In this document: piece by piece, positions 12,546-44,233 of the stretch | Numbering within the stretch: the stretch's first letter is position 1 | Layout of the letters: each line of letters opens with the position of its first letter | Position numbers and translations under genes: made by a program | Assembly (NCBI GenBank): GCA_963798915.1 | Contig: CAWCVB010000010.1 | Location: 32,001-96,000, forward strand | Source of the DNA: an uncultured Gemmatimonadales bacterium | Lineage (GTDB): Bacteria > Gemmatimonadota > Gemmatimonadetes > Gemmatimonadales > GWC2-71-9 | Direction: 5' to 3' | Length of the DNA stretch: 64,000 nt | The notes under the pieces: model-generated | Told to the model about the DNA's origin: nothing | The model's input: the letters and a program-made list of their open reading frames with translations, nothing else | Database searches by the model: none

Positions 12546-12632
12546 CGTGTTCCGTCGTTCCGGGACAAAGTGATTACGAGAGGACCGCATGGATAGCCAA
12601 CCGTGGGCCACGCGCCACAGCCGCGGCCGGCA

Positions 12633-13505: not shown

Positions 13506-14435
13506 TTATTCCTCTCGCGCCACCAGCGCCAGCGCCAGCCGCCCCACAATGCCGAGGCTTTGCGCGCTGATCTTGTCCATGGTATCGCGCGGGGTATGCC
13601 AGTAGGGATAATCAAAGTCCACCACGTCAATGGCGCGGATGCCGGCCTGCTGCAACTCGACGTGATCGTCGGTGAGCGTTACGTTCTCATAAGGCACGAA
13701 CACCGCGCCATACCCGAGCTTGTGCGCCGTGTCCCAGACGAGGTCCACGACCTCGCCCGCTCCGATCATCGAGTTGCCCTCCTGCGAAATGCGCAGGTCC
13801 TTGTCGCCCACCATGTCGAACAGCACCGCGTACAGTGGCTTGGGACCGAGCTGGTGCTGGCCGTAGTAGCGGCTGCCAATGAGCACGTCGCCCCGTTCGG
13901 TGAAGAAGTCGCCGTAGTCTTCGCCATCCGCAAAGAGCAGGTCGACGCCAACACCGGGAGCGGCGGCCTTGAGCGCATCGGCCACGCCCAGCAGCACGGC
14001 CACGCCGGAGGCGCCGTCATTGGCGCCGGGCACCGGCTGGGCGCTGTCACCCGGTTGCGCATGGGTGCCATCCGAATAGGGACGCGTATCCCAATGCGCC
14101 ATGAACAGGAGCCGCTTGGTGGCGCCGGGATTGAAGCGGGCCACGAAGTTGGTCAGCGCCAGCGAGTCCCCACGCACATCCACATGAGTCCAGCGCTGGT
14201 CAACGACGGTGTCGGCGCGGGCCCGCAGGAGGCTGTCGAGCCAGCGCGCTTCAGCGGCGTGACCTGGCCTGCCCGGAATGCGCGGCCCGAAGGCGACCTG
14301 CGCGGCCGCGTACTGGAGCGCAGCATCCGCGTCGAAGGCGCGCGGCTCGGCCAGCGGCTCCTCGCCGCAGGCCGCCACACTGGCGAGAGCGAGCACGAAC
14401 AGCAAGGCGACGCGGCACGTTCGCGGAACGATCAT
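13506..14435 (-). CDS. M28 family lipoprotein, probable glutaminyl-peptide cyclotransferase
   Basis: Lipobox VAAC; FGPR.PG..GH, AHWDTRP, GANDGASGV, DGEDYG, FDMVG, DDH and WHT..D motifs of M28 / animal-type QC enzymes. Confidence 0.85.
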   Translation of the reverse strand: MIVPRTCRVALLFVLALASVAACGEEPLAEPRAFDADAALQYAAAQVAFGPRIPGRPGHAAEARWLDSLLRARADTVVDQRWTHVDVRGDSLALTNFVARFNPGATKRLLFMAHWDTRPYSDGTHAQPGDSAQPVPGANDGASGVAVLLGVADALKAAAPGVGVDLLFADGEDYGDFFTERGDVLIGSRYYGQHQLGPKPLYAVLFDMVGDKDLRISQEGNSMIGAGEVVDLVWDTAHKLGYGAVFVPYENVTLTDDHVELQQAGIRAIDVVDFDYPYWHTPRDTMDKISAQSLGIVGRLALALVAREE

Positions 14436-17400: not shown

Positions 17401-20400
17401 TCGCGAAGGTCCACCACAAAGCGGAACACGTTGTCGTTGCCGCCGCTGGCGTTGAGAAGGTTGTCGCCGTTGAGATCCTCGGTATCGAGATGGCCGTTGC
17501 CGCTGGTGCACCGTGCCCCCAGGTCGCCCCACGGAAACACCGCCACGACGGATTGCAGCTCCCGGTGACAGAGCTCGAGGTCGTGCACGTAGCCGCTGCC
17601 CGTCTTGATGGAGTCGGGCCGGTCACCCAGGATACCGATATCATCGGTGGCAGCGTTGAAGATGCCATCGGCGCCCCGTTCGGTGTTGAGCTGGCCCGTG
17701 CCGACCAGCTGCCGGCCAAAGTAGGTCGTATCGGTGCCATTCACCGCCAGACTGTCGGGGGCAAGGCCAATGGCGTCCTCGTTCACGCTTCCCACGTCAA
17801 TCACCATCTGCATGCCGGCCGAATCGGCGCTATGGATCCCCGATTGGTAGACGTAGAACTCGAGATACTCCGAGCGCGACAAGTCCACGCCGGTGGTGCT
17901 GAGGGAGGACACGATGGAGCGCCAGCGCGGCCGCATCGGACGCGGTTCCATGGTCCAGTGCGCTGTGTTGTCGCGCTGCACGATGCCGCCGGCCGTGTCG
18001 GCATGGAGCGTGAGCCACAGCAGCGTCTCGAACTGGTCGCCCCGTCCTGCCAGCACGACGGTCGAATCGATGTCCTGGGGCCGGTACTGCGTCGCGTGCC
18101 CGCTGCCGTCGATGACCAGGTTCTGCCAGGTGAGCTGCACGGCGTCGGCCGGGTCGAAGCCTGCGGCAAAGCCGAGCGCCGGATCCAGTCCGTCGGGGCG
18201 CTGAGGCGCGCTACCGAAGCCCCACACCTGTTCCGTCGAGCGAGACGGGTGTGCCGAGTTCCCGCTCGAATTCCTCAAGGTAGGCAGCCCCGGAGCGGTT
18301 GGGATCAGGCTTGGAAACGGCGACTTCAGCGTTCAGGTCCAGCCGGGAGGGTGCGGACGACGGGGAGCTTACGAGGCCGTTCATCATGCGGGTCAGCCCG
18401 TCCGAGCGAAAATGCAGATCCGCGGTCGCGCCCGCGACCAGGTTGGCCTTGGCCTCGAACCCGAGCTGCGGCCGGTTGAAGGCGCTGGCTTCACGCTGGA
18501 AGACACCGATAAGGTTGACCGAGCCCACCTCGCCAAGGGAATAGCGTGAACTGAGCCCGATGATCGAGGTCGGCGCGACCGCAAACAGGTCCTGCTGCTC
18601 GAATCGCGCCTGGACCGTGGCCGTGCCCGAGCCGAAAAGCGCATCCGGATCGTTAAACGTCACCACACCGGTGCTGTAATCGATCGCATAGTCGACGCCG
18701 CGAACCAGCAGGCGGCTGTTCACCTCGATCTGCTCCGACCCGTCCTTCAACTGCAGTGCGTTCAGGTTGAGCTGCGACCGGTCTCCCCCCGACGCGGCGC
18801 TGTACTGCAGCCGGAACTGGAAGCGCGAGGGCGGGCCCTGCGGGGACAAGATCAGGTATGCCGGCGTCTGGTAGAGCGAGTCACTGATCTCGCTGGGTGA
18901 CAGGTTGGCTGGGTCCGCGAACGGCCGGACGTTCGGAAACACGATGTACGATTCGCGCAGGACGCCACTGGTACTGATCGAGTCGCGGTCTCGCGGGAAG
19001 AGCCGGTTGGTGACGTCGAAGGACGCGGGGTCGGAGGGAACCGCGAGGCCGAGCTGGGCCAGGTACGTGGCGGCTCCGCCCTGCGGGACGCTCGGACTGG
19101 TTCAGCGTGATCGCCACCTTCAGGCTGCTCCGCTCGAGGTCGCTCCCCGCCACGCGGTAGATCTGCCGCATCTCATGCCGGAAGGTGCCGGCATCCGGAC
19201 CGCGGCGCGGCTCGACAATAAGCTCGAGTGAATCAACCACCGCCGGCTGGTCGACCGCAGGGAAGGTCCCTACCCGCCCTCCGTCGGCCGTCGTATAGCT
19301 GACGGCCAGATAATCTGCCGGATCCAGTTTCGATGCCAGAACGAACCAGAGGCCCGAAGGATCGAGGTAATAGTCGCGGCCCTGGAGCAGCAATTCCCAC
19401 TGCGCACCTTCGTCCGGTGCAACCTGGCCAAGCCGCTGGGTGGGATCGGCCGTATTGGACGCGAAGGCCTTCACGCCCCCAAGAATGGGCGTGGCATTGT
19501 TCCCGGCTGCTGCCGGCCGGTAACGATAGACGCGCACCTGCGCCGGCCGGGTGGTCGGCGGCAGGCCGGTCTCGTCGAGGCTGAGGATGTCGACGGCGGG
19601 ATACCCTGCGATGATCGTGGGATCCACGACCCAGTAGAACCGGCCCGACTCGAAATCCAGGTCCCGCATGAGCCGATCCTGCGGCGTCGATGTCGCGCCC
19701 GTCCCGACCTGGAAGGTACGTTCGTTGACCGAACTGCCCTTCTGGGTGGCAAACAAGGCCTGGAACTGGAGAGGCCCCACTTCAAACAGACCATTGATGC
19801 CGAAGTTGCTGCGAGGAACGGCGGCAGTCAGGAATCGCGACGGGGGTGGCTGGAAGGTCACCGTTCCGACTTCCACGCGTCGCACGATTTCGTCACTCAA
19901 TCCCTGGTAGTAGACCTGGATATTGTTGTTGGCGTCGAAATCGCGCGCCGACTGGTAGTCCACATTGACGTGCACCCGTCGTCCGATGAGCCCGGACGAA
20001 CGGACATCGATGTTGTTCTCGAGTTGCGGCGCCTTGATACTGCCGCCGCAGTTGGAAGCCGGACTGTTCAGCTCCGCCGGCGTGCACCGCTGGTTCTTGA
20101 CCCGTTCCGTCCGGATGTCGAGTGTCGCCTGCCCATCGATCGCCAGATCAGCGTATTTTTCATCCAACCCCAGGATGCCGCGGCGCTGCGCCGCCGTCCG
20201 GATCGTATCGGCCTGGTCGCGCCCGTAGATGGTCCGGGCCCGCCGCGCCAGCGCTCTCGCGGTCCGGGCCGAGTCGAGTGCCTGACTGACGGCGCTATCG
20301 AAGGCCACCAGGCCGCTCCTGCCCGCCCAGCCAGGGCGCCCGAAGCACCGATGGCTCGCGCAGCTCAGGGATGGGCACATTGAAGCGGGCGGGCGGGAGC

Positions 20401-20492
20401 GGCAGCGTGGAGTCAGGGACCTGCGCCAGCGCCACCCCTGGGAGGGTGAGCGCCATGAAACCCACGATAGAAGCAAGCCGGGAACAGGCCAC
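14432..20492 (-). CDS. sprA: SprA/Sov-like type IX secretion outer-membrane translocon (~2000 aa; split by several frameshifts)
   Basis: Consecutive fragments 20295-20492, 18881-20476, 18211-18942, 15822-18278, 15331-15978 and 14432-15334. Signal peptide; G.IG....VNVDY, Y.G..DEI...VE.G.V.F, QKG, GSE.I......L.RGVDY.IDY..G.V.F, LDTEDLNG, NEKSL and W.DDIR motifs; beta-strand-rich C-terminus. Confidence 0.85.
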
Positions 20493-20535
20493 GCGAACTC
20501 GGAATCGGGACCGGGTATAAAGGAAGGTCGGGCAG

Positions 20536-20564
20536 AATATAATGTTACGTCGAAACCCTTACAA
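20536..20564 (-). promoter_or_regulatory. Sigma70-like promoter for sprA in the AT-rich sprA/lptF divergent gap
   Basis: Minus strand TTGTAA-N17-TATATT; overlapping plus-strand TATAAT at 20538-20543. Confidence 0.5.
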
Positions 20565-20580
20565 CCACGTTACTTAGACC

Positions 20581-22059
20581 GTGCGACGCCTGACTCGCTA
20601 CGTGCTGGGCCGGCTGGTGGCGCCGTTCGGATTTGCGCTGGCAGCACTGACCGGCTTCATGCTCCTCAACCAGGTGGCCCGGCAGTTTTCCAAACTGGCC
20701 GGCAAGGGCCTCGACTGGAAAGTGATCGCCGAGGTGTTCGTGCTGGCGTTGCCGTTCATCCTGGCGCTTACGCTGCCCATGGCAGTGCTCGTGGCGACGC
20801 TCTACGGCTTCAGCCAGCTGGCGGCGGAGAACGAAATCACGGCGATGCGCAGCAGCGGGGTGAGCGTCGGCCAGATGCTCGGTCCGGTGCTGCTGGTCTC
20901 AGTGCTGGTTGGCGTGGCAACGTTCGGCTTCGTCGACCAGGTGCTGCCCCGAAGCAATGCCCGGCTACGCACGCTCTTTTTCGATATCGCGCGCAAGAAG
21001 CCGACGTTTGAACTGCACGAGCAGGTCCTCAATTCCATCCCCTCCTCGCAATACTTCCTGCGCGCCGCCAAGATCGACCAGGCAGAGGGGCAGCTCCGCA
21101 ACGTGACCATCTTCGACATGGGTGGCCAATGGAGTCGCCGTGTCATCTACGCTGACAGCGGCTCCATGGCCGTCGCCGGGCCAGCCGGCGCCGACCTGCT
21201 GCTGACCCTGCACGATGGCGTCGTGCACGAGTTTCCGGCCGCGGCGCCGGCCGACTTCCGCCTGGTCCGGTTTCACGAAAATCAGGTGGTACTGCGCGGC
21301 GTGTATGACCAGTTCCAGCGCAATGAAGGCACGATCGCCCGCGGCGATCGCGAACAGAGCACTTGCGAGATGCTTGGCGTGGTTCGCGCGGCCGATCGAG
21401 ACGAGCGCCAGGCCGAGCGCGACCGGGATGCCCTGCTCGACCGCGACCTGCGCTTCCTGCTCGGCGTGCCAGCCAGGCCAGCCCCGGCGCCGGTCGAGCA
21501 GGCGCCGGCCCGGGGCTACTGCAACTGGGCCAGCCGGATCCGGGACCTCATCCTCCCAGAGACGGCCAAGGCGCAGCAGGCTGCACAGCTGCCGGCAAGC
21601 AAGGTACGGAGCGCGCCACCGAGCCGCCTTTCGGGTCGGGGTGAGGTCACCGGCACGGCCAGCCGCATTGAGTCGGCAGAGCGCCAGAGTGATCGGTTTC
21701 TCGTCGAAGTCCACAAGAAATGGGCGATCGCCTTTGCCTGTCTTCCCTTTGCCCTGGTCGGCATCGTCGTCGCGCTGCGCTTTCCTCGCGGCGGCATGGG
21801 CCTCGTGATCGGCGGTGCAATGGGCGTGTTCGCGATCTTCTGGGTCGGGCTCACCGCGGGCGAGGCCCTGGCGGACAAGGGCATCCTGTCGCCCTGGCTG
21901 AGCATGTGGGCCCCGGACCTGGTGCTCTCGGTGCTGGGACTCATCGGCCTGGTCGTCGTGAGCCGGGAGATGGGCTCCACTCGAGGCGGCGACTGGCAGG
22001 AAATGGCCGACTGGTGGGGCGACCGCTGGCGGCGTGCGTGGCGCCGGGTGCGGCCATGA
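20581..22059 (+). CDS. lptF: LPS export permease LptF
   Basis: L.RY N-terminus, LPMA.L...L, NEI.AMRSSG.S, E.HKK.A and W.PD motifs. Confidence 0.9.
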   Translation: MRRLTRYVLGRLVAPFGFALAALTGFMLLNQVARQFSKLAGKGLDWKVIAEVFVLALPFILALTLPMAVLVATLYGFSQLAAENEITAMRSSGVSVGQMLGPVLLVSVLVGVATFGFVDQVLPRSNARLRTLFFDIARKKPTFELHEQVLNSIPSSQYFLRAAKIDQAEGQLRNVTIFDMGGQWSRRVIYADSGSMAVAGPAGADLLLTLHDGVVHEFPAAAPADFRLVRFHENQVVLRGVYDQFQRNEGTIARGDREQSTCEMLGVVRAADRDERQAERDRDALLDRDLRFLLGVPARPAPAPVEQAPARGYCNWASRIRDLILPETAKAQQAAQLPASKVRSAPPSRLSGRGEVTGTASRIESAERQSDRFLVEVHKKWAIAFACLPFALVGIVVALRFPRGGMGLVIGGAMGVFAIFWVGLTAGEALADKGILSPWLSMWAPDLVLSVLGLIGLVVVSREMGSTRGGDWQEMADWWGDRWRRAWRRVRP

Positions 22060-27879: not shown

Positions 27880-28019
27880 TACCACCACGGGGAGTTTGAG
27901 GGGGGATTCAACTGGGAAAATCGACCGCAATCGTATGCTTGACAAGGGGGGAGCCGCTCCCGTTCTTTCGCTCGCCGCAGGGCCCCGCAGGTCCGCGCGC
28001 CCTCTCTGGAGATCTATTC

Positions 28020-31919: not shown

Positions 31920-33574
31920 TTACTGGCCGATCATCCGGAAGAGGTAGTGCGCAGCAGGCTTTGGCGATGCCGAGTAATTGAAGTAGACGATCGCCACGTA
32001 GTATGTGCCGGCAGTCAGCGCGACGTCCCCAGATTCGGCATTGGCCGTACCAGAGGCACCGCCGCCGCCCTTGGAGTCAACAGCACTGCTGAGTGCCGAG
32101 AAGCTGGCATCGTAGAAGTAGACCCCCAAGTCTGCACCGTCGCTGATGTACGGCAGCTGGAACTTGATGGTCTGGTTGGCTCCCAGAACCAGCTTGTACA
32201 ACCGGGCACCACCGCCAAAGTCGGCGCTCGCGTTGAAATCATATGGCGCGCCGTCCCAGAACGCCGTGGTGTCACCAACCGCCGGGTCGGTAATGCTCGG
32301 AGCGGTCGCAAAGGCGCCCGTTCCCGCCAGGAACGCCACTTCGTCGGCGGTGATCGTCTGGTTGCTCGGCAGGTCGCCCATCTTGAACAGCGATACCAGC
32401 CCGCTGTCGACGCTCATGTTGCCATCAACGCCAGGCTCAAAGAGGACCGAAGCGGAGTTGCTGTCCGCGGCGATGGTCCACGCGAGCGCCGGACGTCCAT
32501 CGACCGCAAACGTGGATTTAGGTGAGAAGCGGAACAAGGCACTTCCGCCCGTGACCGTGACGAACTGGCCCACCGCTGGCGTATTGTCGGAAACTGCGGC
32601 CTGGAACGTGTCCACCACCGCGCTCACGAGTGTGTCTTCCGACGTCAATGAGAACGTGAACGTCGGGTTGGCAGCATTGATGAGATTGGTGAAGGTGGTC
32701 GGCCCGACGCTGTTCGGCCCCGCCTCCAAGTCCATGCTTGTGCCATCCCCGGCAATAACGAACCGCGGCGTCGGCCCGGCCGAGTCAAATGAAACTTCGG
32801 TCGAGTCCGTGAAGATGACGCCGGCGGGCGCAGTGACCGTAATGTGCTCGCCCAAGGCCGGCGTGAGATTGCTGAAGGTGAAAGGCTGGGTTCCGGAAGG
32901 GCTGTTGAGCGTGTCGCTGGCAGTAACTCCGAAGACCACGTTCTTATTGTATGTCAACGTGACATTGGTGAACTTGGCCGGCCCAAGGAGATCGGGCCCG
33001 GCATTGAAGGTCAGCGTGGTGCCGTCGGGCGCGACGCTGACGGGCGTCAATGTGTCGCCACCGAAAATCACCAGGGTGGAATCGGTGAACAGCAGGTCGG
33101 ACGTCACCGATGCGGTCACGACCTCACCCAAGGCCGGTGTCAGAGTCGAGAATGGAAAACTCTCGGCACTGTTGGGGGTCACCACCACCGGCACGTCCAG
33201 CGTCAGATCACCGCTGGTGATGGAAAATGACGAGTTGTCGAGCTCGCTGGTGCTCACCCAGACCCGAAGTTCCGTCGTGTTCGGGTTGAACACCAGGGTA
33301 TCGCCGTGGTAGATCGGCCGGAACGCCGAGTCGGCACGAACGCTGATGCCGGGTCCCACGGTCGAGATCGAGATGGGCTGCAGGACTGACGTGCCCTGCT
33401 GATCCACGACCCGGATGCGAACATTCTGGCTGTCCGTTCTCGAGACGAACACGACGGCGGGTTCGGCCACGATGTGGTCAGCCGATCCGGGACTGACCTG
33501 ATCGGGCTCGGTGCTGCATGCCCCGAGCGACACGTCACGGCGAGTAGAACAGCACCACGCAAGATACGATTCAT
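31920..33574 (-). CDS. Lipoprotein with three internal beta-rich repeats and a C-terminal PPC-like domain (indel in the signal peptide)
   Basis: MNRILRGAVLLAV joins VSLGA-C after a 1-nt shift near 33535. Repeats TPALGEVVT / TPALGEHIT / TPAVGQFVT; D....Y and L.AGTYYV.I motifs. Confidence 0.7.
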
Positions 33575-33660: not shown

Positions 33661-35159
33661 CTAGAAGGGGCTGTCGGAACCACCGGTAAAATCAATGCCC
33701 AGATAATGGCAGATATCCTGCACCGCCGCCTTACCCAGGATTTCCTTCCAGGCGGCAGCACCGTGCTCAGTGACAGTCGTTGGTGTAATCAACTGGTACG
33801 ACCCGAACCCGTTACGATCCGCAAAAATATAGTATCGCGGCTTGCCACGGGTGTATCGCCACACCTCATATGGCGGCGCGAAGCCAGTTGGCACCCGCGT
33901 GAGCTGGTCGGATGCCGCGCCATACTTGGCATAAATCCGGCCCCGGTCAGTCCGCCACCCCGGCTCCTGCCGGCCTCGTCCCAACCCGAAATGCCTGGTC
34001 CGCATAGGCAATGGCCTGGTAGAACCGCTCGCGCTCCTCATTCGCCGGCGTTTCCGGCTTGAGCGTCGAACTGCTTCCAGAAGGCCACCAGGAAGCGGCG
34101 CTTGGCACTCACCGACAATTTGTCGTAGCCGCGCAGCTCGTTCGACTTGGCAATCAGCAGCAGTGGCGCCTCCGCAGAATCCAGCTGCGCCTCGTCCATC
34201 GCCGCGAAGTATGCCTCGTCTCCCGCGGTCGCTACGCTGCCGGCGCTCATGCCGCCCCGAGCGCTGTCCTGCGCCAGTGTCTCCTGCATGCTGGCCATGC
34301 TGAACGGTGCCCGCCGCTCAATCCGCTGCCCATTGAGATCCAGCGTGACCACAAACTGATATCGGTCCTGGCGGAAGTCCATCAAGATCCAGCTGCCCCT
34401 GCAGCGTCCCGCCTCCTGCCGGCACCGGGACCGCCGATGGTGCTGTTCGGAAGAATGACTTTCCCCGACGAATCCACCACCGAAACCTGCATCGCGCCCG
34501 AGGTTTCGTCCGGTCTGTCCCGTGTAGGTTTCCAGCAGGTAGAACGCCTTGGTGCGCATCGGTGTCAGTCTGAAGCTCCACGGCTGGCACCAGGATGGTA
34601 TTTCCTCGCCGGATTTCGCCCGGCTGGGGCACGGTGTCGCCGTCGCCGGCCGTGCGCATGGCAGGCGACAACAGCAGGTCGCTCGCCGTCGGGCGGCGAA
34701 CTGTAGCCCAATGACCGCTGACATCCGTCTGCGCCTCCGTCCCGACACGCTGTCAGTCACGGTAACGTGCATGGTGTAGCGGCCCGCGACCACTGGAAAC
34801 TCCATCAATTCCAAGTCCGGTGGCGCCAGGCATCTTGCGCTTCGGTCGGGAACCCGCTTGCTCCAAGTCCACGGCTCCGCCAGGAGCGCAAGGCCGGTCG
34901 AGTCTGTCACCTGGGCACTCACGCTGTAGACCATGCTGCCCGTCGCCGGAACCACTTGCTGGTGCCTGCAGGAGCGAGTATGGCACACTCACGAAGACCT
35001 TGACCAGCGTCTGCGCATGCATCGGGCCGATAGTACCGGACGACCCGCATGCTCCAGCGAATCCTGGGCGCGAACTTCAGACGCGGGCCAGAGCGAAAGA
35101 AGCGCCGCCAGTGCCACCACTGAATGCAACATGCAACTGCCTCGGAATGAGTAGTTCAT
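33661..35159 (-). CDS. GWxTD domain-containing exported protein (multiple frameshifts)
   Basis: Signal VRA-Q; KRRFL..FWKQ.D; GWRTDRGRIY.KYG; E.WRY and YIF.D..G.G.Y.L across fragments. Confidence 0.85.
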
Positions 35160-35268
35160 GGAGACCCGGCCGAGAGCCGACTGCTCGACAGCCTGCCATG
35201 CCGGTGCCGGCAATCGTGGCCGGCCTCCTGTATGACGCGCAACTCATCCCGCCTTGGACAAGAAGAGC

Positions 35269-35310: not shown

Positions 35311-36426
35311 TTACCAGCCGAGGCTGAAGGTGAAGAAGTTCGTTCCACCCAGGACGCCCATGTAGCGGAAGGCGTAATCCAGCCCAAGACTGAAGGTGCC
35401 GGTGTCGTAATTCAGTCCGCCACCGAGGGCCAGACCCTGCAGGCGCTCTTCATCATTGAGCGCCGTCTGGTTCACGGCGAGGTCCACATTGTTGGCCGGC
35501 GCGTAGCTGTAGCTGCCGCGCAGCGCAAATCCGAACGGGCTGCCACCGAGCCGATTGGTGGCGAACTCGCTGCCGAACGAGAAGCCCGCCTTGTTGCTGG
35601 TGACCTGGTTGAAATCACCCAGCAGCGAAAGGCGGCTGGTCTCCGCTGAAATCAGGTCGTAGGACAGGCCCACCCGGAAGGTGGTCGGGAGCGGGAAATC
35701 CTTGCTCCGGAACTGGCCCGGCTGATCGATGCTGGGGACCGGCTGCTCACCCTGGAGGGGCTCCCGTGGGATGTCCGCATTCAGGCCCGTGCCGCTGTAG
35801 CGCAGGTTGGTGCCGAGATTGGACAGGACGAAGGAGAACACTACCGGATGGTTGTTCAGCGAGGCATGGAAATTGGTGCCGAAGTCCACGGCGAACGCCG
35901 TACCGTGCGCGTCGCCGAGGTTGTCGGAAATCACCTTGCCCGTGATGCCGGCGGAGAAGCGGTCGGAGAAGTTCGACGCCAGCGTCATGCCGGCGAAGGT
36001 TTCCGTGACCGAGTACCGTGCGCCGGTGCCGTCTGGCTGATCCACGGTGTAGACCGGCTGGTCGCTGAAGCCGAAGGTGCCGAGCTGCACGCCGAACGAG
36101 CTGGTGCCGCCGTTAAATGGCAGCGCGAAGCCACCCCAGCTGTAGCGGGTGTCCGCCACATAGTTGTAGGTGCTGACCATGACACCCGGCCGGCTCATCA
36201 GCGCGGCGCCGCCCGGGTTGTAGTAGAGGGAACTCACATCGGTTGCGAGCGCAGTGAATGCGCCGCCGAGCGCGACGCCCCGGGCCCCGGCCCCAAGCAG
36301 CAGGAATTCTGCCGAGGTGGTCCCGTAGCCCGTATTGTCCGCGGCTGCCTGTGCTGCCAGTCCCGCCGGCAGCCCAGTCAGAAGCGCCGCGACCAGGGCG
36401 AAGCGTTGGGTGTTGAACTGACTCAT
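35311..36426 (-). CDS. porV: PorV/PorQ family outer-membrane beta-barrel (T9SS shuttle homologue)
   Basis: Signal LAA-Q; hallmark AEFL..G.GARG.ALG.AF.A.A.D.S..YYNP.G; A.D.G, LP..FR.G and LDYA motifs; terminal aromatic FSLGW. Confidence 0.9.
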   Translation of the reverse strand: MSQFNTQRFALVAALLTGLPAGLAAQAAADNTGYGTTSAEFLLLGAGARGVALGGAFTALATDVSSLYYNPGGAALMSRPGVMVSTYNYVADTRYSWGGFALPFNGGTSSFGVQLGTFGFSDQPVYTVDQPDGTGARYSVTETFAGMTLASNFSDRFSAGITGKVISDNLGDAHGTAFAVDFGTNFHASLNNHPVVFSFVLSNLGTNLRYSGTGLNADIPREPLQGEQPVPSIDQPGQFRSKDFPLPTTFRVGLSYDLISAETSRLSLLGDFNQVTSNKAGFSFGSEFATNRLGGSPFGFALRGSYSYAPANNVDLAVNQTALNDEERLQGLALGGGLNYDTGTFSLGLDYAFRYMGVLGGTNFFTFSLGW

Positions 36427-36486
36427 AAGCTTCCATTCTCCTGGATGCGGGGAAGGACGGGCGAGCCGCCCTCCCCCTGCTGTGGG

Positions 36487-39400
36487 CTACTGGGCGAAGT
36501 TCACCACGGTAAACCGGCCGACTCGCCGCGCATCACCTGCTTCGATGTGATAGAAGTACACACCGCTTGCGACCACCTGGTGGTTCCGGTTCTGGAGGTT
36601 CCAGCTCTCGGTACCATCGCTCTGAGCCGAGTGGTGCTCCAGCACATCCACCAGCACGCCACTCGATGAGTAGATGCGGATGGTGGCCGCGTCGGGCAGG
36701 TTCACGAACTTGAGAATCTTGACGTCCGTGCTCTGCTCCAACTCATTGGTGATGTAGTATGGGTCCGGCACCGTATGCACCGCGTCGAGGTCCGCCAGCG
36801 TCGGAGCGGCAATCGTGTTGGTGGCGGTGAACTGCACACCGATTTCGGCGCCAACGGCCGAGAACGTCCGTGGAACCTCGAAGAATGCACCGGCATCGGT
36901 GACGCCTCCGACATAGCTACGCAGCGTCCAGACCGTACCGGCCGCCGGGAGTTCAGTGGCTCCCATGAGGAATGGGAAGCCCGGCATGTAGAGCCCGAAA
37001 CCGGTCTGGCCCGGCGGAGGAGCGGCCGCGATCTTGGCCGCTGTGTTGCCGATCTGCAGCGGCGCGATTGTCGCCGTCTCGACCAGACGGTATGGATCCG
37101 CGACCGCGTCGTCACCGCAATCCATATTGGTGGCCTGGAAGCCGCTGGCCACCTGCTGCGGCGCCGGCGTGACGCAGGCAAAGTCGCCCAGGGTCACGAC
37201 CCCGGTATTGCCGTCGATGCTGGCGTCGTTGCTGGCCGAGGCCGGCGTGAGGAAGCCCCAGTTGCCGCCGAACGCGGTGTCGAACGGCACCGGCACATTG
37301 TGGGTGATGTCAATGACCGAGTCCACCGTGCCGCCCGCGCCCCAGTAAAGCTTGAAGTCGGCCGCGCGCACTGCAGCCCCGAACATGCCGTTGAAGTCGC
37401 GGAAGCCCACGCCCGCGTAGCCCTGGAGATAGGCCATCGGGTAGTGAATAACCGAGATCCCCGGCAATTCGCCCGCATTGCTGAAGTCGGCGAAGCTCGC
37501 CGGACTGATAGCGTAGTTCGCGTTCGGATTATCCTGCGTTTCGTTGTCACCCACGAACCACCGCGGACCGTTGGCGGGGGACAGTGTCGGGAAACCGGTC
37601 GTCTGTGACCCGAACGCGTCCGAGCGGCCCCACTGGGAAGTGAAGTATTCGCCGGGCAGCGTCATCTGTACATTGCCGTACAGCGCGAAGTCGCTCGATC
37701 CGCCGAAACGACTGCTGCTGGGATCCAGCGCCGCGGCCTTGAAAGGCGTCCCGTCCGCCGTAGTAGGAGCTTCAGTAAAGTTCTGCAGGATCGGGACGGT
37801 GATGTGCGCCGTGCCAGCAGAAGACGTGGCCGTCAGGTAATACGTGTTCGACATGCCTTCCACGGCATTGCCCAGGCCGATGCTGTCCAGCCGGGCCGAG
37901 AAGGAGCCGGAACCCTTCAGCACCTCCGATACCGCGCCAACAAAGCTGACGTCCCACGCGTTCGCGGCCGGAAACGGCCCGCTGAACTTGCTGGTCGCCG
38001 GGTCAAAGGCGGGCGCCGGAGCATCGGGATTCAGGTTGGTGCCACGCCCGCTGATGAAGGGCTGCGTCGCGACGTCGCTCGCACTGTTGGTGGCGGCTAC
38101 GTGCGGCGTCACTGACTTGGTGATTCGCGCCGACTCGATACTGGACGGGCCTGACGCGAATGAGTTGACATCGAAGGCGGTGACCGCGTAGAAGTAACGC
38201 AGATTGTTCCGCACCCCGCGGTCCACGTACACGAACGGCACGCCGGTGTCAGCAAGCCCGGGGAAGCCGGAGTTGCCGCCGGTGATCACGGTGTCGGACT
38301 GGAGCGGCAGGATGGTCGCCGTGCCGTCAGCCAACTCGGCGCGGGAACCGGTCTTGACCTGGACCACTCCGCCCACTAGCGGAATATCACGCGAGTGCGT
38401 CCGCGCGACCCCGGGCTCGAACTCGGTCGAATCGTAGCCGGCCGCGCATCGGTCAAAGAGACCGATGTCGGGTGCGCACACGGTGAGTTCGGTCGCATCC
38501 GTTCCAGTGTTGGCCACGAAGCCAGAGAAGTCACTGATCGAGGTGCCGCCGTAGTCGAACTGAGCCAGCAGCGACAGCGAGCTGGGGGCGTCCACCCGGC
38601 CCCGATAGACCCGGTAGCCCTCCACGTCATACTGGCGATAGTTCGGGATCATACAGGTTGTTGACGACCGGCGCGCCACCACCCTCGGGCACGCTCATCG
38701 GGCTGCTGGCAATCTCGAAGAAGGGATCGCCCGTGCTCTCAGTCGCGGATGGACGCCAGAGCACCGTCACCTGGTTATCGCCCGGCACCAGGAAGAACTC
38801 CGGCGCGTCGGGCGCAAAGGCGAGCAGGAATCGGCTATCAAAGACCTGCTGGGCCACCTTGGCCTTGCCCAGCAGTGAGCCGGGCACCACGTTGTACTCA
38901 TCCTGCTGGGCAATGCCGTCGACGTTGGCGTCGCTGTAGCCCAGGAAACCCGCCAGCGAATCCACCATGTTCACGCCACCCGGCGTGGTCAGCGTGGTCA
39001 TGTCGGTGAACACGCGGGGATCGCCCGGCGTGAGATCGGTCGCGCCGCCCGGCGAGAACGAGGCCACCGCGACCGGCGCCGCGAAGATATACGCCACCGC
39101 GATCGAGCCAAATTCGCCCGGTGCCAGCGTCAGCGGCGTCGACGACTGGAAGAACCGCATGTCGGCCGCGGCCGTATTGTTGACGTAGCAGATGTGCGTA
39201 ACGCGTCGGGTCTCCCGTGGTGCACGGGGCATCGCCGGCCGCGTCGAGATGTTGCCCGACAGGTAGCGGAACAGCTGCGTGGTGTTGCGCGGATCGCCGA
39301 ACACGCCGCCGTTGATGGTGTTGCTGAACAACTGGATTGCGCCCGGCCCGGTCGGGACTCTTCAGGTACTTGACGCCCACGAATCCGACGCCCGGGAAGA

Positions 39401-40377
39401 AGGGCGGTGCGAAGATGCCGGGATCGAAGGTCCAGGTGTTCGGCTGCCCGAAGTCCTTCTGATAGGTATTGCCCAGCGCGAACGGCAGCTCGACCGTCGA
39501 GTAGTTGTCGCCGGCGCTGCCGACGTCCATGTCCGCGCCAAACGCCGCGAACATGTTCTCGATCGTATACCCTTCGTCCGGCAGGTCGACGCCGTACTCG
39601 GCGTTGTTCAGCGCATGAAACTGCTTGCGCCTTCTCCAGCAGGATTTCGCGCATGCTGGGCCGGATAGCCGCGTAGACCGCCGGATCCAGCGACGTCACA
39701 TTGTAGAAGGTGTAAATCAGGTAGACGATGTCCTGGTTACCGGTCGGATAATTCCAGCCCATGCCGCGGGTCTCGACCGCGATGCCCATGGGGTGCGGAC
39801 GGCCGCCGCCGGTGCTCGGATCGCCTTCCCATGACATCAGCCAGACATCGCCCTGTGAGGCGCTGACCCGGTTGCGGAGCACCGGGTAGAACAGATCCTC
39901 ACTGGCATCGCCACTGGGAACCAGCGCGGCGTCCGGCCAACTGGCCACATCGTCGGGATTGGTGGCGTTGTAGATCGGCTGAACTTCCTGGCCGTGCACG
40001 TTGTCGCCGCGAGCGTTGAAGAAGAACGCGCCCGTGGTGTCGCCGCCCCAGGGGTTGGCCGGCTTGCTCCCGCCGATGATACCGGCAAGCTGAAGACCGG
40101 TGTTGAACACGTACTGGTCGCCCGTGCCCTTGGGCCAGAAGCCGCCACCGATGGTGGAGGAGTTGGTGGAATCCACGCAGATTTCTCCGCTGGTGGATAT
40201 GCCGCAATAGACGCGGTTGATGGTGAACGCGCCCAGACTGCGCGCGAACAGCCGGAATCCGCTGCGCTTGACGCCCGGCTCGGGCTTGGCCGACGCCACT
40301 GACGGCGCGAACGCCGCCATGGCGAGGGCCAGGAGCCCGCCGAGCAGGACGCCCCTCGTACCGAAACGTGAGTGCAT
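36487..40377 (-). CDS. Large (~1300 aa) secreted protein with T9SS/FlgD-Ig-like C-terminal sorting domain (several frameshifts)
   Basis: Signal MHSRFG...ASA; PGDNQV...W, GYRVYR and YFYAVTAFD motifs; C-terminus VPDPY...KF.NLP..ATIRIY..SG.LV...W.L.N......ASGVYFY.I.......F.VV. Confidence 0.82.
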
Positions 40378-40460
40378 CGTGCATCCTCTCCGATGAGAAT
40401 AGCGTAGGCCCCGGAGCCGGGAGCGCACCTGCGCGCCCACCGGCCCGGCACCCGTTGACC

Positions 40461-43400
40461 TCAGAAATTGATCTCGACTCCCAGCCGCGCCCGACGGCCG
40501 GTGCCCAGGAAGGCGTTCTCGCCCAACCCGGTCAGGTAGCGCGCCTTCGGCAATCTTGCGCTGCTCGTCCAGCGAGAACAGGTGGTCGCCATTGCCCCAG
40601 CGCTCTTCCACGCGCCGCAGGTAGATGCAGCTCGGCACGCCGCCTTCGATCTGCGGTGGTGACGTAATTGGCACATCCAGCCACGCCCTGGCCACCAAAT
40701 TGAGGTCGATGTCGCCGGTAGCGTCGTTGTAGATCGCGTTGGCCGTAGCTTCGTCCTGCCAGTTACCCAGGGTGGACTGGATCGACCGCTCCTCATTCAG
40801 GTTGTCCACGATGTCATTGGTGTTGATGAACACGCGGAGGACATTCTTGAAATTGAACAGATTGTCAACCTGCAGGTAGGTCGTCAGGTCCATGCCACCC
40901 AGGCCAAAGCCCTTGGTGAGCTTGATGTCGAACTGCTTGAAGGCCGGCAGCCGTGCGGCGTTATAGCCGCCCACGAACTGGCTCTGGATGCCGCAGGCCT
41001 GACCCGAGAGCACGCCCAGATTATCGCTGGCCGGCGTGCACTTGGTATACGCGGTGCCACTGGCGTAGCGGAAGACGCTGAACAGCCCGACGTTCTGGAG
41101 GACCGTGCCCAGCGCCGTTCCATCATGCCAGTCGCCCGGGAAGTTCACGCTGAAGGCACCCGCCAGGCTGTGTGGCCGGCTCTCGTTCGTCGGCGCGATC
41201 GCCTGCGGCGGCGGCTGGTTGCCGCCCGACAGCGAATTGATGATGCGCGAGCCGAAATTGATATAGGTCAGCGGGTCCGACCCGGTGTTCTTGGCTGAGG
41301 CGTAGCTGTACGACACCGTGCCGTTGAAGATCTGGCCGATCCGACGGTCCAGCCGGACGTCCACGCCGCGCGTGTTGCCAAAGTCCTCATTGGTCAGCAC
41401 CCGCAGGTTGTTCGGGCGAGTTGTTGCGGGTCGGGTTGCGACGGCTGACAAGGCGGCCCGCGACGTCGGCCAGCTTGTCCTTGTTGTAGGCCGCCACGTC
41501 CAGCACCATGTCGTCGCTGAAGGCATGCCGGATGCCGAACTCGAAGAGCACCGTCTTGGCGAAATCGAGGTCGGTGCCGAACACGTTGTTCGTATTGCTG
41601 AGCGTCAGGTCGCTGAAGATGCTCGTCAGCATGGCGCCGAAGTCCGGCGTCTGCACCTGGTGTGCATAGGACAGGCGGAAATTGGTCTTCTCCGTCACCG
41701 GGAAGGCCACCTGCACGTGCGGGCTCAGGTACGAGTGACGCTGGTCGGGCAGGAAGGCCACCAGCGGCAGGTCCTGGCCATTGACGTTGAACGTCTGGCC
41801 CTCGGCCCCGTAGCTCGAGAGGGCCGGATACTGCTGATACTGCCCGAAGGTCGGATTGGCCGCGCCCAGTCCCGGAAAGCGTCTGGATCGTGTCCAGCGA
41901 ATAGGGCCGTTCTGCGCGCGTGTTGTATACGTCGTAGCGCAAGCCGCCGACCACGACGACGTCGCCCAGGTCGAGCCGGTCTTCCACGAAGGCGTTCCAG
42001 TAGATGGGCTTCTCGATGTAGGCATCGGAGAAGATCTGAGTCGTCAAGCTGTGGCCGTAGAGCGCTGTGTTGTACCAGGTATGCTCGCCGCCCAGCTTGA
42101 GCCGGTTGTAGCGGTCAAACTGCCAGTCAACATTGGCCAGGGCCCGGAGGCGGTTCTCCCGGTACATCCGGAGCGTGCCGGTGGGTCCACCGGTCTCGCT
42201 GCTGCCCAGCGTGCCGTAGCCGCTGTTGCGGTAGGTGTTGACCGTATTGTACTGGTCCACGCGCGGCCAGGTCATACGGCGACCGTCGGCTGCCCTGCCG
42301 GTTGAACTTGTAGTTGTTGATGAGCTCCGAGTCCAGCGGGAACGACTTGAAGTCAAACATGAATCCGAGCGGCTGCACCAGGAACCCACCGAAGTTGTCC
42401 TGCGGTGGCCAGCGCGCTCTCGGGGGTGAGCGGTCCCTGCAATCCCCGATCCTGCTGATAGGAAAGGCTGGCATCGAGAGCCAGGGCGCGTTCAGCCGAC
42501 TTGGACAGGTTCTGGGTCCAGTTCATCTGGTAGACCCGGCTCCAGTTACGAAGCCCAAACAGATTGGACGGGTTGGAGTTGAGCGTGATCCCGTTCCGGC
42601 TCTGGCTCTGGCTACCAATGAACAACAGCGCGATGCGCGAGCCCACGCCGAAGCTGTAGTTCAGCTTGCCCTGCACGCCGTAATTGGACGACACATTACG
42701 GGAATTGCGGGCCCCGTTGCAGGACACACCGTAATTGTCGGCAATGTCAGGGTTGGTGCTGCCGGCAAACTGCTCGCACGTGCCCTGGTCCACCGCCAGG
42801 TTATACACATCCACGTACGACGTGTCGGACGTCTGGCTGCCCGGCGAAAGCGGCACCGCCACGGTGGTGTCAATGCCGGCGTACCGGAAGTTCGGATACA
42901 GTTGGGCATTCCGCCCGCCGAAGCCGTACCGGTTGCCTTCCAGGGTGCCTGACAGGTAGAACGTCAGGTCGCCCATCAGCGGGCCGCCGAGGGCGGCATT
43001 GATGCGGTTGAATCCGGTGCTGCTGGTGTTGGCGAACGGTTCGTCCGTCTCCCAGCCCAGGTGGCCACTAAACGAGGAGCCGCCGGTCTTGGTGACGATG
43101 TTCAGGATGCCGGACTGTGCGTTGCCATACTGCGACGAGCTGGCGCCAGTGGTGATCGATGCTTCTTCAAAGTCTCCCTTGCCGAAGTCAATCGAGTTGC
43201 CACTGACGTTCGAATTGGTGACCGTGCCACGGTTGCCTGGCGAGACCGGTACGCCATCGATATAGGTGGCCGCCTCGTCTGGCCGGCCGCCGCGAATGCT
43301 CAGCGTATTGCCACTGGCGCTCGCCACCACGCCCGGCTGCAACGCCAGGGCCTGGTTGATGCGATCCACCGGCAACGCCGCCGTGAAGTCGCCGCTGATC

Positions 43401-43825
43401 CGCTGCTTGGTCGTGACTTCGTCACGGGGCACCAGCGGCTGCGTGGTGGCGACGGTGATGTCGGGCAGTTCAACTGTCGTGGCCGGGAGGCTGAAGTCCT
43501 GCGTCAGCGTCTGGCCGGACAGGACACGCACGCCCTCCGTGCGCATGGCCCGGTAGCCGATGAACGCGGCACGCATGGCGTAGGTGCCGGAGGGCACGTT
43601 GTTAATGAAGTAATACCCCTGCGGGTTGGTGAGCGCGGAGAACGCAGTGCCGACGATCGTCACGGACGCGTTAGCGATGGGCGCGCCCGCCTCATCGTTA
43701 ACCCGGCCCTCGACCTTGCCAGTTGCCTGGGCCTGGAGCGCTGATGCGCCCACCACCAGAGCAACTGCGGCAAATGCGAACGTACGCGCTGCGCGAGCGA
43801 AGGCCCTGACACAGCTTTGCTTCAT
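40461..43825 (-). CDS. TonB-dependent receptor with carboxypeptidase-regulatory N-domain (multiple frameshifts)
   Basis: Signal LQA-Q, G.Y.I.NVP.GTY, L.LQPGV, IRGGR..E...YIDG, YGNAQSG..N..TK.G, SP...AFPV and C-terminal RLGVEINF. Confidence 0.9.
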
Positions 43826-44233
43826 GGAAACGTCCTCCAAAGGCGTGAACCTGCTTGGTACTGCCAGCTTGGAGCGGGGGAAGGCCTCCCCCTGCGGGCA
43901 CAACTACATCATGGGCCGCCAGCGAGAGCTGACGGACAGTATGTACCGGCGGATTGTTGAGACCGTGGCCGAATGCAAACTGTTGATGCCTTTAGAAATG
44001 CCAGAACGGAGTCCGGTCCGAAATGACCGGTCAGCTAATATGAAACGCGCCGGAACGCGTGTCAAGCAATTGTCACGGCCCATGCTCCGGTTCGTGACGT
44101 CCGCGTAACCCGCTGCAACTAGCCCGGTTACCCTCTGGAACGGAAGGCCGACCGGGGGGACCGGCTCCCGCACGGCAAGTCGAAGCGACTCACCTGAACT
44201 GCATCGTGCAACGCAAATGATTGCCTAGACTAA

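What the first reader, a model, noticed from the sequence alone, without database searches (positions are those of the whole stretch)
35311..43825. TonB receptor - giant CTD protein - dedicated PorV cassette: a SusCD-like uptake unit whose 'lid' is a T9SS cargo
Seen: three tightly co-oriented genes (gaps ~83 and ~60 bp) in the order TBDR, signal-peptide protein with a C-terminal sorting-like domain, PorV. The large protein has no lipobox and no catalytic motif I can recognise. Established: SusC receptors pair with SusD lipoproteins, and PorV binds T9SS CTDs. Inference: a private PorV paralogue may permanently anchor the uncleaved cargo beside its cognate TBDR as a substrate-capture protein. 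I do not know of a characterised system with this architecture.
Basis: partly seen in the sequence, partly recalled or inferred. Interest (0 to 1): 0.82.

Follow-up and report, generated by a model that had tools for sequence, protein, structure and literature searches.

The report
TonB receptor with PorV-anchored surface partner
A soil Gemmatimonadales bacterium encodes, side by side, an outer-membrane import channel, a 1,300-residue secreted protein with a type IX secretion tail and that protein's own PorV-type barrel, a trio that is copied and inherited as one unit and is probably an undescribed way of giving a nutrient receptor a surface partner.

Summary
In this assembly the receptor and the large gene are broken by 5 and 3 single-base insertions, which look technical: relatives carry intact genes.

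The order receptor, CTD protein, PorV-family barrel is kept in 60 of 61 and 60 of 60 related loci. A GWxTD-domain gene follows in 57 of 58. More distant copies occur in other families of the phylum, at least five in one genome. Among paralogous copies the three proteins show the same groupings, so the trio duplicates as a unit.

The barrel belongs to a cargo-linked clade, separate from a stand-alone PorV-like gene that other genera carry. In this genus it is the only PorV-family gene found, and the cargo is the only CTD protein found. SprA lies 15 kb away. No PorU or GldK/L/M/N was detected.

The cargo's N-terminal half models as a galactose-mutarotase-like beta-supersandwich, not a PorU-like protease.

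Best reading (about 0.5): a TonB-dependent transporter whose surface partner is exported through SprA and held by a private PorV-type barrel.

Earlier notes of this scan report the same module in other genomes. I found no paper describing it.

The parts
40461..43825 (-). TonB-dependent receptor, about 1,120 codons. It has a signal peptide, a CarboxypepD_reg domain, a plug and a long barrel ending ..RLGVEINF. It is broken by 5 single-base insertions near 42405, 42263, 41868, 41416 and 40548.
   Evidence: Pfam hits. Frame pieces aligned to the intact 1,152-aa orthologue of G009 at 72-88% identity in most pieces, 58% in one 53-residue piece. Insertions. Start and stop. It is not SusC-type (TIGR04056 23 bits vs 368). 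Its intact orthologues have no hit to the Oar-type barrel PF25183.
36487..40377 (-). Secreted partner ('cargo'), about 1,296 codons. It has a signal peptide without a lipobox, an N-terminal beta-supersandwich half, an unfolded C-terminal half and a type IX C-terminal domain. It is broken by 3 single-base insertions near 39626, 39357 and 38648.
   Evidence: Intact orthologues of 1,282-1,363 aa in 12 of 12 fetched loci. 1,235 related protein clusters at E<=1e-5.
38820..40255 (-). Approximate span of the cargo's galactose-mutarotase-like beta-supersandwich domain. Coordinates are mapped from the G009 orthologue.
   Evidence: AlphaFold2 model of orthologue residues 30-600: pLDDT 83.5, pTM 0.85. 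VIA-align Z 18.2, 17.8 and 17.7 to the N-terminal domains of dextran dextrinase 9ju0, glucodextranase 1ulv and glucoamylase 1lf6, with 238-252 residues aligned at rmsd 3.1-3.9. Foldseek finds the same families at E about 1e-5 but TM only 0.2-0.3.
36511..36726 (-). Type IX secretion C-terminal domain (CTD) of the cargo.
   Evidence: TIGR04183 at 28.5 bits, the only hit in the genome. CHU_C at 24 bits, below its cut-off. The best NCBIfam matches are the tail regions of the PorZ and PorU models. An HMM of this tail finds no other ORF among 37,730 six-frame ORFs of the genome.
35311..36426 (-). PorV/PorQ-family outer-membrane barrel, 371 aa, intact, of the cargo-linked clade.
   Evidence: NF033709 at 140 bits. 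The only family member above cut-off in G000 and G009. Tree. 84% identical to the G009 orthologue.
33664..35261 (-). GWxTD-domain protein with a signal peptide, fourth gene of the operon. It has 2 single-base insertions near 34058 and 33984.
   Evidence: It follows the PorV gene in 57 of 58 loci. The domain itself is multi-copy and also occurs in genomes without SprA.
31920..33533 (-). Lipoprotein of about 537 aa with a C-terminal PPC domain, a likely fifth gene. The orthologue has the lipobox ..VFGAC|SS.
   Evidence: Present further downstream in 45 of 50 loci.
14435..21423 (-). SprA/Sov translocon gene. It is not part of the operon but is the presumed export route. It is read in at least 7 frame pieces here and is intact (2,330 aa) in G009.
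   Evidence: TIGR04189. Coordinates. It lies on the same contig 12-22 kb from the cargo gene in 12 of 19 cargo-bearing genomes.

Best explanation
The locus is an outer-membrane operon of five envelope proteins. Its core is a TonB-dependent transporter, a large all-beta surface protein, and that protein's own PorV-type barrel.

The most likely working order is as follows. The 1,300-residue protein crosses the inner membrane by Sec. This is inferred from its signal peptide. It then passes the outer membrane through the SprA translocon encoded 15 kb away, using its C-terminal domain. This is inferred from homology. No sortase is present, so it keeps that domain and stays bound through it to the co-encoded PorV-family barrel, as PorZ stays on PorQ. 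This too is inferred. Held at the surface, its sugar-binding-type N-terminal domain captures or processes a substrate that the neighbouring TonB-dependent transporter imports. This step is inferred from linkage, co-duplication and fold.

The frame breaks in this window are most likely errors of the assembly, so the genes are probably functional in the organism.
For: Linkage:
- Receptor upstream in 60 of 61 loci, PorV gene downstream in 60 of 60, GWxTD gene next in 57 of 58.
- Gaps of 9-83 nt, all on one strand.

The trio is an evolutionary unit:
- Distant cargo homologues elsewhere in the phylum again sit between a receptor of the same family (236-550 bits to my receptor HMM) and a cargo-linked-type PorV (199-287 bits, against 43-64 for the stand-alone type). 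This holds in 7 of 10 loci, five of them in one genome.
- Paralogue groupings agree in all three proteins. Over 78 pairs, r is 0.895 to 0.927. Within one genome, r is 0.85-0.91, and 4, 1 and 2 of 120 permutations reach the observed value.
- A second cassette type has an unrelated passenger. Only the roughly 100-aa tail is shared (hhalign probability 96%). It keeps the same architecture.

TonB link and regulation:
- In one relative a TonB_C gene ends 1 nt before the receptor gene, with an ExbB gene just upstream.
- Another copy has a TonB_C gene 260 nt upstream.
- Two copies are preceded by a histidine kinase and a sigma-54 regulator and followed by beta-helix proteins.

Export and anchoring:
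- SprA is present in 19 of 19 cargo-bearing genomes.
- The cargo-linked PorV clade has SH-aLRT support of 99-100.
- No PorU above cut-off in 5 of 5 genomes.
- A review states that the PorU and PorZ tails stay bound to PorV and PorQ, and that type B cargo uses cognate PorP/SprF barrels (PMC10202324, passages read).

Fold: the N-terminal half is a galactose-mutarotase-like supersandwich.

Frame breaks are technical:
- All 10 breaks in three genes are +1 insertions.
- Identity to G009 equals that of an intact relative.
- Multi-frame receptor, cargo or fifth-gene copies occur in 10 of 22 loci from records titled 'MFD...contig_', and in 0 of 56 other loci.
Against: - No physical contact between any two of the proteins was tested or predicted.
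- The C-terminal half of the cargo could not be folded, and no ligand site is known.
- A shared supersandwich fold does not show sugar binding.
- In this lineage the neighbours include no glycosidase, peptidase or sugar-metabolism gene.
- Of the 8 extra cargo copies examined, only one has a full cassette of its own. Two have a PorV gene but no receptor. Two lie upstream of another cassette's receptor, and three lie elsewhere without a receptor or PorV gene.
- The cargo family was not found in 16 of 35 SprA-bearing relatives.
- The usual motor and ring of type IX secretion (GldK, L, M, N) were not detected, so export through SprA is itself unproven here. Those searches had no positive control.
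- The higher receptor-cargo distance correlation among orthologues may only reflect the length of the proteins.
Confidence: 0.5

Rival explanations
1. The cargo is an independent surface protein, such as an adhesin, surface-layer component or enzyme. It is exported by SprA and anchored by its PorV-type barrel. The receptor is only co-regulated with it and forms no complex with it.
For: The cargo-PorV pair is the tightest unit: 60 of 60 loci, plus two pairs that stand without a receptor (L111, L137). Some cargo copies stand alone or in tandem (L139, L140, L148). No uptake-related enzymes lie nearby in this lineage.
Against: The receptor co-duplicates and co-diverges with cargo and barrel among paralogues. 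Its family is specific to these cassettes. Mere co-regulation would not be expected to keep that pattern in 60 of 61 loci.
Confidence: 0.2
2. The cargo and barrel are part of the secretion machine itself. They would be a lineage-specific counterpart of the PorU-PorV or PorZ-PorQ attachment pairs, and the receptor is incidental.
For: The tail matches the tail regions of the PorZ and PorU models best. In this genus the cargo is the only CTD protein and the barrel the only PorV-family gene. sprA is 12-22 kb away in 12 of 19 genomes. porU-porV adjacency in Bacteroidota is recalled, not taken from a call.
Against: The cassette is multi-copy, at least five in one genome, which is unlike a machine part. 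It was not found in 16 of 35 SprA-bearing relatives. With no other CTD protein in the genome there would be nothing to attach. The N-terminal half is not a C25 protease fold. The PorU model matches only the tail, at 10.7-14.4 bits against a cut-off of 420.
Confidence: 0.1
3. The receptor works in export rather than import. It would couple TonB-ExbBD energy to the release or secretion of the cargo, standing in for the missing PorLM motor.
For: No GldK/L/M/N was detected in 5 of 5 genomes with five models. TonB and ExbB genes lie directly upstream of the receptor in a relative. The PorLM motor is homologous to ExbBD-type motors (PMC10202324, passage read). A TonB-dependent transporter needed for protein secretion in Myxococcus (Oar) is recalled, not taken from a call.
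Against: The receptor lacks the Oar-type barrel family, while a different receptor near sprA has it. TonB genes next to a receptor are equally expected for import. The absence searches had no positive control.
Confidence: 0.08
4. In this particular organism the cassette and sprA are decaying pseudogenes.
For: There are 5, 3, 2 and at least 6 frame breaks in the receptor, cargo, GWxTD and sprA genes. Yet 17 of 26 syntenic genes, including pilB and pilC, have none. That is more uneven than a uniform error rate predicts.
Against: All 10 mapped breaks are single-base insertions with none deleted. There are no in-frame stops or large deletions. Divergence from G009 is no higher than in an intact relative. 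The same kind of break is seen only in one class of assemblies.
Confidence: 0.12

Closest known systems
SusC/SusD (RagA/RagB) pairs of Bacteroidota polysaccharide utilisation loci
   Same: A long TonB-dependent barrel with an N-terminal CarboxypepD_reg domain is encoded directly before its surface partner. The pairs are multi-copy in some genomes and duplicate as units. Some copies have regulators upstream and candidate glycan-active proteins downstream.
   Different: The receptor fails the SusC/RagA model (22-25 bits vs 368), although true SusC-type receptors exist in the order (412 bits). The partner is a 1,300-aa beta protein with no lipobox and no SusD domain. It is held, by inference, by a barrel rather than a lipid. 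A third gene, the barrel, is obligatory.
PorZ-PorQ and PorU-PorV pairs of the Porphyromonas gingivalis type IX attachment complex
   Same: A CTD protein whose tail is retained and bound by a PorV-family barrel (PMC10202324, passages read). The tail here matches the PorZ and PorU tail regions best.
   Different: The passenger is unrelated, with a supersandwich N-half. The cassette is multi-copy and linked to a TonB-dependent receptor. The barrel does not reach the PorV or PorQ equivalog scores.
Type B CTD cargo with cognate PorP/SprF-like shuttle barrels in Flavobacterium johnsoniae
   Same: The cargo gene is genetically linked to its own specialised barrel, and orphan cargos share a barrel (PMC12618676 and PMC9143113, abstracts read). 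Orphan cargo copies are seen here too.
   Different: The tail is nearer type A (TIGR04183 at the cut-off) than type B (CHU_C 20-24 bits vs 27). The barrel is PorV/PorQ family. No receptor is part of the Flavobacterium pairs.
BamG-BamH of the Bacteroidota BAM complex
   Same: A 14-stranded FadL-family barrel holds a surface-exposed protein by its extracellular loops in a stable complex. The authors compare this to PorV (PMC12578637, passages read).
   Different: That is a different barrel family and partner, the partner is a lipoprotein, and the function is in barrel assembly.
Receptor plus surface lipoprotein systems (BtuB-BtuG, TbpA-TbpB)
   Same: A TonB-dependent transporter works with a dedicated surface capture protein encoded beside it. 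This is recalled, not taken from a call.
   Different: Those partners are lipoproteins. None uses a type IX tail and a protein barrel as anchor.

Membership tests
SusC/SusD (RagA/RagB) pair | Receptor matches the SusC/RagA subfamily model TIGR04056 | tested here: not met
   23.4 bits (window fragment) and 22.5-25.1 bits (intact orthologues) against a cut-off of 368. A true member in the same order scores 412.
SusC/SusD (RagA/RagB) pair | Partner is a SusD-like helical lipoprotein with a lipobox | tested here: not met
   The signal peptide has no cysteine. No SusD Pfam hit at E<=1. The N-half model is mostly strands.
SusC/SusD (RagA/RagB) pair | Receptor and partner genes adjacent and co-inherited | tested here: met
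   60 of 61 loci. Paralogue congruence.
Type IX secretion type A cargo | C-terminal sorting domain TIGR04183 plus a Sec signal peptide | tested here: inconclusive
   Window copy 24.1 and 28.5 bits against a cut-off of 23. Four orthologues score 18.6-21.9, below the cut-off. A signal peptide is present.
Type IX secretion system (whole machine) | SprA/Sov translocon present | tested here: met
   TIGR04189 above cut-off in G000, G009 and 35 of 41 relatives. The tallies include the unpublished genome G023.
Type IX secretion system (whole machine) | PorK/L/M/N (GldK/L/M/N) motor and ring present | tested here: inconclusive
   No hit above cut-off with TIGR03525, TIGR03513, TIGR03517, PF12081 or TIGR03523 in 5 of 5 genomes each. 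No control genome holds these families, so sensitivity is unknown.
Type IX secretion system (whole machine) | PorU sortase present | tested here: not met
   NF033707: no match above 20 bits against a cut-off of 420 in 5 genomes. The weak hits are tail regions.
PorV/PorQ family barrel | Matches NF033709 above cut-off | tested here: met
   140 bits vs 90.
PorV proper or PorQ proper | Reaches the equivalog score of NF033710 or NF033711 | tested here: not met
   45.8 vs 250 and 63.7 vs 220.
PorV/PorQ family barrel | 14-stranded FadL-like barrel that binds a CTD | not tested
PorU-PorV / PorZ-PorQ attachment pair | Passenger homologous to PorU (C25 peptidase) or PorZ | tested here: inconclusive
   The PorU and PorZ models match only the tail. 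The N-half is a supersandwich fold. The C-half was not folded.
Oar-type TonB-dependent transporter | Barrel matches PF25183 OMP_b-brl_4 | tested here: not met
   No hit at E<=1 for two intact orthologues. The other receptor near sprA scores 170 bits.
Type B CTD with PorP/SprF barrel | Tail matches CHU_C (PF13585) above cut-off | tested here: not met
   13.8-24.2 bits against a cut-off of 27.

The most novel reading that the evidence does not exclude
These Gemmatimonadales run a stripped-down type IX pathway with SprA and a PorV-type barrel but no PorK/L/M/N and no sortase. In this genus it serves a single substrate. The cassette's TonB-dependent barrel, fed by TonB-ExbBD, supplies the energy link that the PorLM motor gives in Bacteroidota. 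On this reading the receptor is part of delivering or releasing its own surface partner as well as, or instead of, importing a nutrient.
Probability: 0.1. Interest if true: 0.9.

Novelty: new variant of a known kind. Interest (0 to 1): 0.68.

Why it matters
Receptor-plus-surface-partner machines such as SusCD explain how Bacteroidota take up complex nutrients, and all known partners are lipoproteins. Here the partner would instead be delivered by the type IX translocon and held by a private protein barrel.

The three genes duplicate together, up to at least five times in one genome. That would make this a general, undescribed building plan for outer-membrane uptake in Gemmatimonadota. Earlier notes of this scan, not tested here, place it in other phyla related to Bacteroidota as well.

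It also gives a concrete role for SprA and PorV homologues outside Bacteroidota. It raises the question of how SprA works without the PorLM motor.

The claims are testable in cultured Gemmatimonadota.

Tried and rejected
**The idea that cargo-PorV is a diverged porU-porV pair.** The PorU model matches only the tail. The N-half fold is a supersandwich. The cassette is multi-copy. I rejected this as the main reading.

**An Oar-type receptor.** No PF25183 hit.

**GWxTD as a type IX marker.** The domain is present at 1-7 copies per genome where found, and occurs in 5 of 6 SprA-less relatives. Rejected.

**Reads to check the frame breaks.**
- One run held 6% of the sampled words.
- Its 151-nt contigs cover none of the break sites.
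- Three of them are identical to the window at 43149-43299, 43608-43758 and 43830-43980.
- This gave no information on the breaks.

**Sequence motifs at the breaks.** There are no long homopolymers, apart from one run of five C. I did not test for methylation motifs.

**ESM Atlas on cargo residues 600-1210.** Only unnamed clusters, with scores of 0.86-0.88.

**Sequence search of solved structures.** The receptor, barrel and cargo profile found nothing apart from a CarboxypepD_reg-type match.

**Complex prediction of barrel plus tail.** The queue was full, then the tool was declared unavailable. It was not run.

**Fold of the cargo's C-terminal half (alignment A3).** It was not done.

**Orthologue mirror-tree.** Receptor-cargo r was 0.895, and the partial correlations were 0.67 and 0.77. 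I kept this only as weak evidence, because longer proteins give less noisy distances.

**Promoter scan.** One TTGACA-17-CATATT site lies upstream of the receptor (44065-44037). The number of sites equals the chance expectation.

**Cross-phylum survey.** Not possible with the genome tools, which reach only this phylum.

Full report
**What is in the window**

The window is G000:C10:32001-96000, from a 3.3-Mb, 17-contig assembly rated 84.8% complete. GC is about 65%. Names attached to homologous proteins and loci place it in the order Gemmatimonadales.

Five genes with short spacers lie on the minus strand:
- a TonB-dependent receptor, 43825 to stop 40461-40463;
- a large secreted protein, ATG 40377 to 36487;
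- a PorV/PorQ-family barrel, 36426-35311;
- a GWxTD-domain protein, about 35261-33664;
- a lipoprotein with a C-terminal PPC domain, 33533-31920.

That was my error.

**Domain evidence**

- The receptor has CarboxypepD_reg and Plug domains and a barrel fragment. It ends in ..RLGVEINF.
- The large protein starts with a signal peptide (..VASA|KPEPG) without a lipobox. It ends in a type IX sorting domain: TIGR04183 at 24.1 and 28.5 bits, cut-off 23.
- The last gene of the three passes the PorV/PorQ family model (140 vs 90 bits). It does not reach the PorV or PorQ equivalog scores.

**The genes are broken here, probably by the assembly**

Neither large gene is an open frame. The receptor aligns to the intact G009 orthologue in six frame pieces, the cargo in four and the GWxTD gene in three. 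Every step moves the frame in the same direction.

Aligned to the DNA of relative L050, all ten breaks are uncompensated single-base insertions in the window. There are no internal stops other than those the shifts create, and no large deletions. Identity to G009 (receptor 77%, cargo 69-73%, barrel 84%) equals that of the intact relative L050.

In the 78 related loci, receptor, cargo or fifth-gene copies read in more than one frame occur in 10 of 22 loci from records titled 'MFD...contig_'. They occur in 0 of 56 other loci. Natural decay would give deletions as well. I put about 0.85 on technical error.

One thing stays unexplained. Within the 47-kb syntenic block, 17 of 26 genes have no break, while sprA, both large receptors, the cargo and the GWxTD gene carry nearly all of them. 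Public reads did not help.

**Conservation**

A fragment of the cargo finds relatives in 19 of 41 related genomes. The count includes G000, and the unpublished genome G023 is among those without a match. All 12 loci fetched have an intact cargo of 1,282-1,363 aa followed by the barrel. Eleven have the receptor upstream, and the twelfth starts at a contig end.

A scan of one genome per species found 572 stretches encoding a relative. Of the 78 loci kept, 76 carry Gemmatimonad- names. Two carry other labels (Bacillota and Saccharibacteria MAGs) that I take for mis-binning. Several of these loci are the same contigs as the first twelve.

Where the flank sufficed:
- the receptor was upstream in 60 of 61 loci;
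- the barrel was downstream in 60 of 60;
- the GWxTD gene was next in 57 of 58;
- the fifth gene followed in 45 of 50.

The exception (L111) is a second cargo-barrel pair flanked by unrelated genes.

In a sample of the phylum, the cargo profile hits 139 of 401 genomes at E<=1e-20. That is 99 of 166 in the window's family and 0 of 93 in a sister family. This tally includes the unpublished genome G086.

**The trio is a unit of evolution**

Weak profile hits in other families and classes turned out to be 1,070-1,370-aa proteins. They match the cargo at its N-terminus, its middle and its tail.

I fetched ten such loci and scanned them with HMMs built from my own alignments:
- Seven have receptor, cargo and cargo-type barrel in the same order. 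Five of those are in one genome.
- One is cut by a contig end.
- One is a lone cargo.
- One has the cargo before a receptor.

For 13 trios I compared pairwise distances. The same groups appear in all three proteins: (a,b,c) against (d,e) within one genome, a 'second type' shared by G106 and G018, and the main family. Correlations over 78 pairs are 0.895-0.927.

Among the five paralogous trios of one genome, where the species tree cannot contribute, correlations are 0.895, 0.909 and 0.853. Only 4, 1 and 2 of 120 label permutations reach the observed value. The three genes therefore duplicate and diverge together.

The second type has a passenger that shares only the roughly 100-aa tail with the first, yet it keeps the architecture.

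**The barrel**

In a tree of 66 PorV-family proteins (quick IQ-TREE, SH-aLRT support), the trio-linked barrels form one clade (support 99). The second-type barrels are their sister (100). Eighteen shorter stand-alone PorV-like proteins form a separate clade on a long branch (100).

The stand-alone genes that I checked follow the era gene. This genus has none of them:
- one PorV-family hit at E<=1e-10 in G000 and one in the 100%-complete G009;
- no tblastn match outside the trio.

So 'dedicated barrel' is right as a clade. In this genus, however, it has no general counterpart.

**The secretion context**

sprA lies in the window at 14435-21423, also frame-broken here and intact in G009.
- All 19 cargo-bearing genomes have SprA. 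In 12 of them it is on the same contig, 12-22 kb away.
- 16 of 35 SprA-bearing relatives lack this cargo family.
- No PorU was found.
- No GldK, L, M or N was found with five models. None of the control genomes holds those families, so the absence is not proven.
- The cargo is the only hit to TIGR04183 in G000, G009 and G026.
- It is the only weak hit to CHU_C in G000 and G009.
- It is the only hit of a tail HMM among 37,730 six-frame ORFs of G000.

**The cargo**

No Pfam or NCBIfam family covers the passenger. No solved structure matches by sequence.

An AlphaFold2 model of orthologue residues 30-600 is confident (pLDDT 83.5, pTM 0.85). Residues of about 37-513 align to galactose-mutarotase-like supersandwich domains:
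- Z 18.2, 17.8 and 17.7 to the N-terminal domains of a dextran dextrinase, a glucodextranase and a glucoamylase (238-252 residues aligned, rmsd 3.1-3.9);
- then GH116 and GH94 N-domains;
- the YidC periplasmic domain at Z 12.

Foldseek agrees on the families but with low TM-scores. The domain has about 200 residues of insertions. A shared fold does not show sugar binding. The C-terminal half was not folded.

**Hints about use**

In this lineage the neighbours are uninformative. In more distant copies:
- a TonB_C gene ends 1 nt before the receptor gene, with an ExbB gene upstream (G132);
- another TonB_C gene lies 260 nt upstream of a receptor;
- two trios are preceded by a histidine kinase and a sigma-54 response regulator and followed by beta-helix proteins;
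- one has a glucosamine-6-phosphate isomerase-family gene nearby.

These fit a regulated, TonB-powered uptake locus. They are not proof.

**Against a strict lid model**

Of eight extra cargo copies examined:
- one has a full cassette;
- two have only a barrel;
- two sit just upstream of another cassette's receptor;
- three stand elsewhere without a receptor or barrel.

Partner and receptor are therefore not always one to one.

**Comparison with the known**

The logic resembles SusCD, but both defining proteins fail membership. Anchoring of a CTD protein by a cognate PorV-family barrel is known for PorZ-PorQ, PorU-PorV and type B cargo with PorP/SprF (PMC10202324 passages; PMC12618676 and PMC9143113 abstracts). 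A FadL-type barrel holding a surface protein is known from BamG-BamH (PMC12578637 passages). SprA is reported as specific to the FCB superphylum and present in most of its phyla (PMC12611786 passages). One paper says type IX systems 'may also be present' in Gemmatimonadetes (PMC11285876 passage).

Seven full-text searches (and 55 for GWxTD) found no description of a receptor, CTD protein and PorV cassette. Subscription journals are not covered.

**Earlier notes of this scan**

Nine notes report the same kind of module in other genomes. One concerns the same cargo family in another Gemmatimonadales genome. I saw them after forming my reading.

I did not test their cross-phylum claims. One note calls the receptor 'Oar-type', and my test does not support that label for this family.

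**Verdict**

The module is a new variant built from known parts, and its physical assembly remains to be shown.

Noticed in passing
window 14435-21423 (-): An SprA/Sov translocon gene lies 15 kb from the cassette. It is read in at least 7 frame pieces here and is an intact 2,330-aa ORF in G009.
   Followed up: partly
window 8000-55000 (syntenic with G009:C38): Frame breaks are very unevenly spread. sprA, two large receptors, the cargo, the GWxTD gene and two others carry all of them, while 17 of 26 genes (pilB, pilC, lptG-like and others) have none. No explanation was found.
   Followed up: partly
window 23261-26381 (-): A second large TonB-dependent receptor lies between the lptF/G-like gene and the heme O synthase gene. 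Unlike the cassette's receptor, its G009 orthologue matches the Oar-type barrel family PF25183 at 170 bits.
   Followed up: no
L117:2922-3893, L125:5290-6258, L118:4760-5740 and others: Other genera of the order carry a shorter stand-alone PorV/PorQ-family gene (322-346 aa). In the two checked it lies directly after the era GTPase gene. It was not found in this genus.
   Followed up: partly
L115:5832-16955 (G018) and L150:2303-13585 (G106): A second cassette type has a receptor, a 1,369-1,386-aa protein sharing only the tail, and a PorV-family barrel nearer the NCBIfam 'PorV2' model. A small OMP_b-brl barrel (238-258 aa) and a gene of about 600 aa follow.
   Followed up: partly
L149:12680-14635 (G132): A TonB_C-domain gene ends 1 nt before the receptor gene of a distant cassette. 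A MotA/ExbB gene lies 0.5 kb further upstream on the same strand.
   Followed up: no
L145 and L146 (G041): Two sister cassettes are each preceded by a histidine kinase and a sigma-54 response regulator. Each is followed by a beta-helix protein of about 700 aa.
   Followed up: no
window 8421-12632 (-): Type IV pilus genes pilC and pilB are intact and about 90% identical to those of G009.
   Followed up: no
L032:5331-8852 (G009), window about 27990-30000: One long ORF carries both COX15/CtaA and heme O synthase (UbiA) domains. It may be a real fusion or an artefact of my ORF calling.
   Followed up: no
L140:1125-8699 (G372): Two cargo paralogues lie in tandem with no receptor or PorV gene within the 17 kb fetched.
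   Followed up: no
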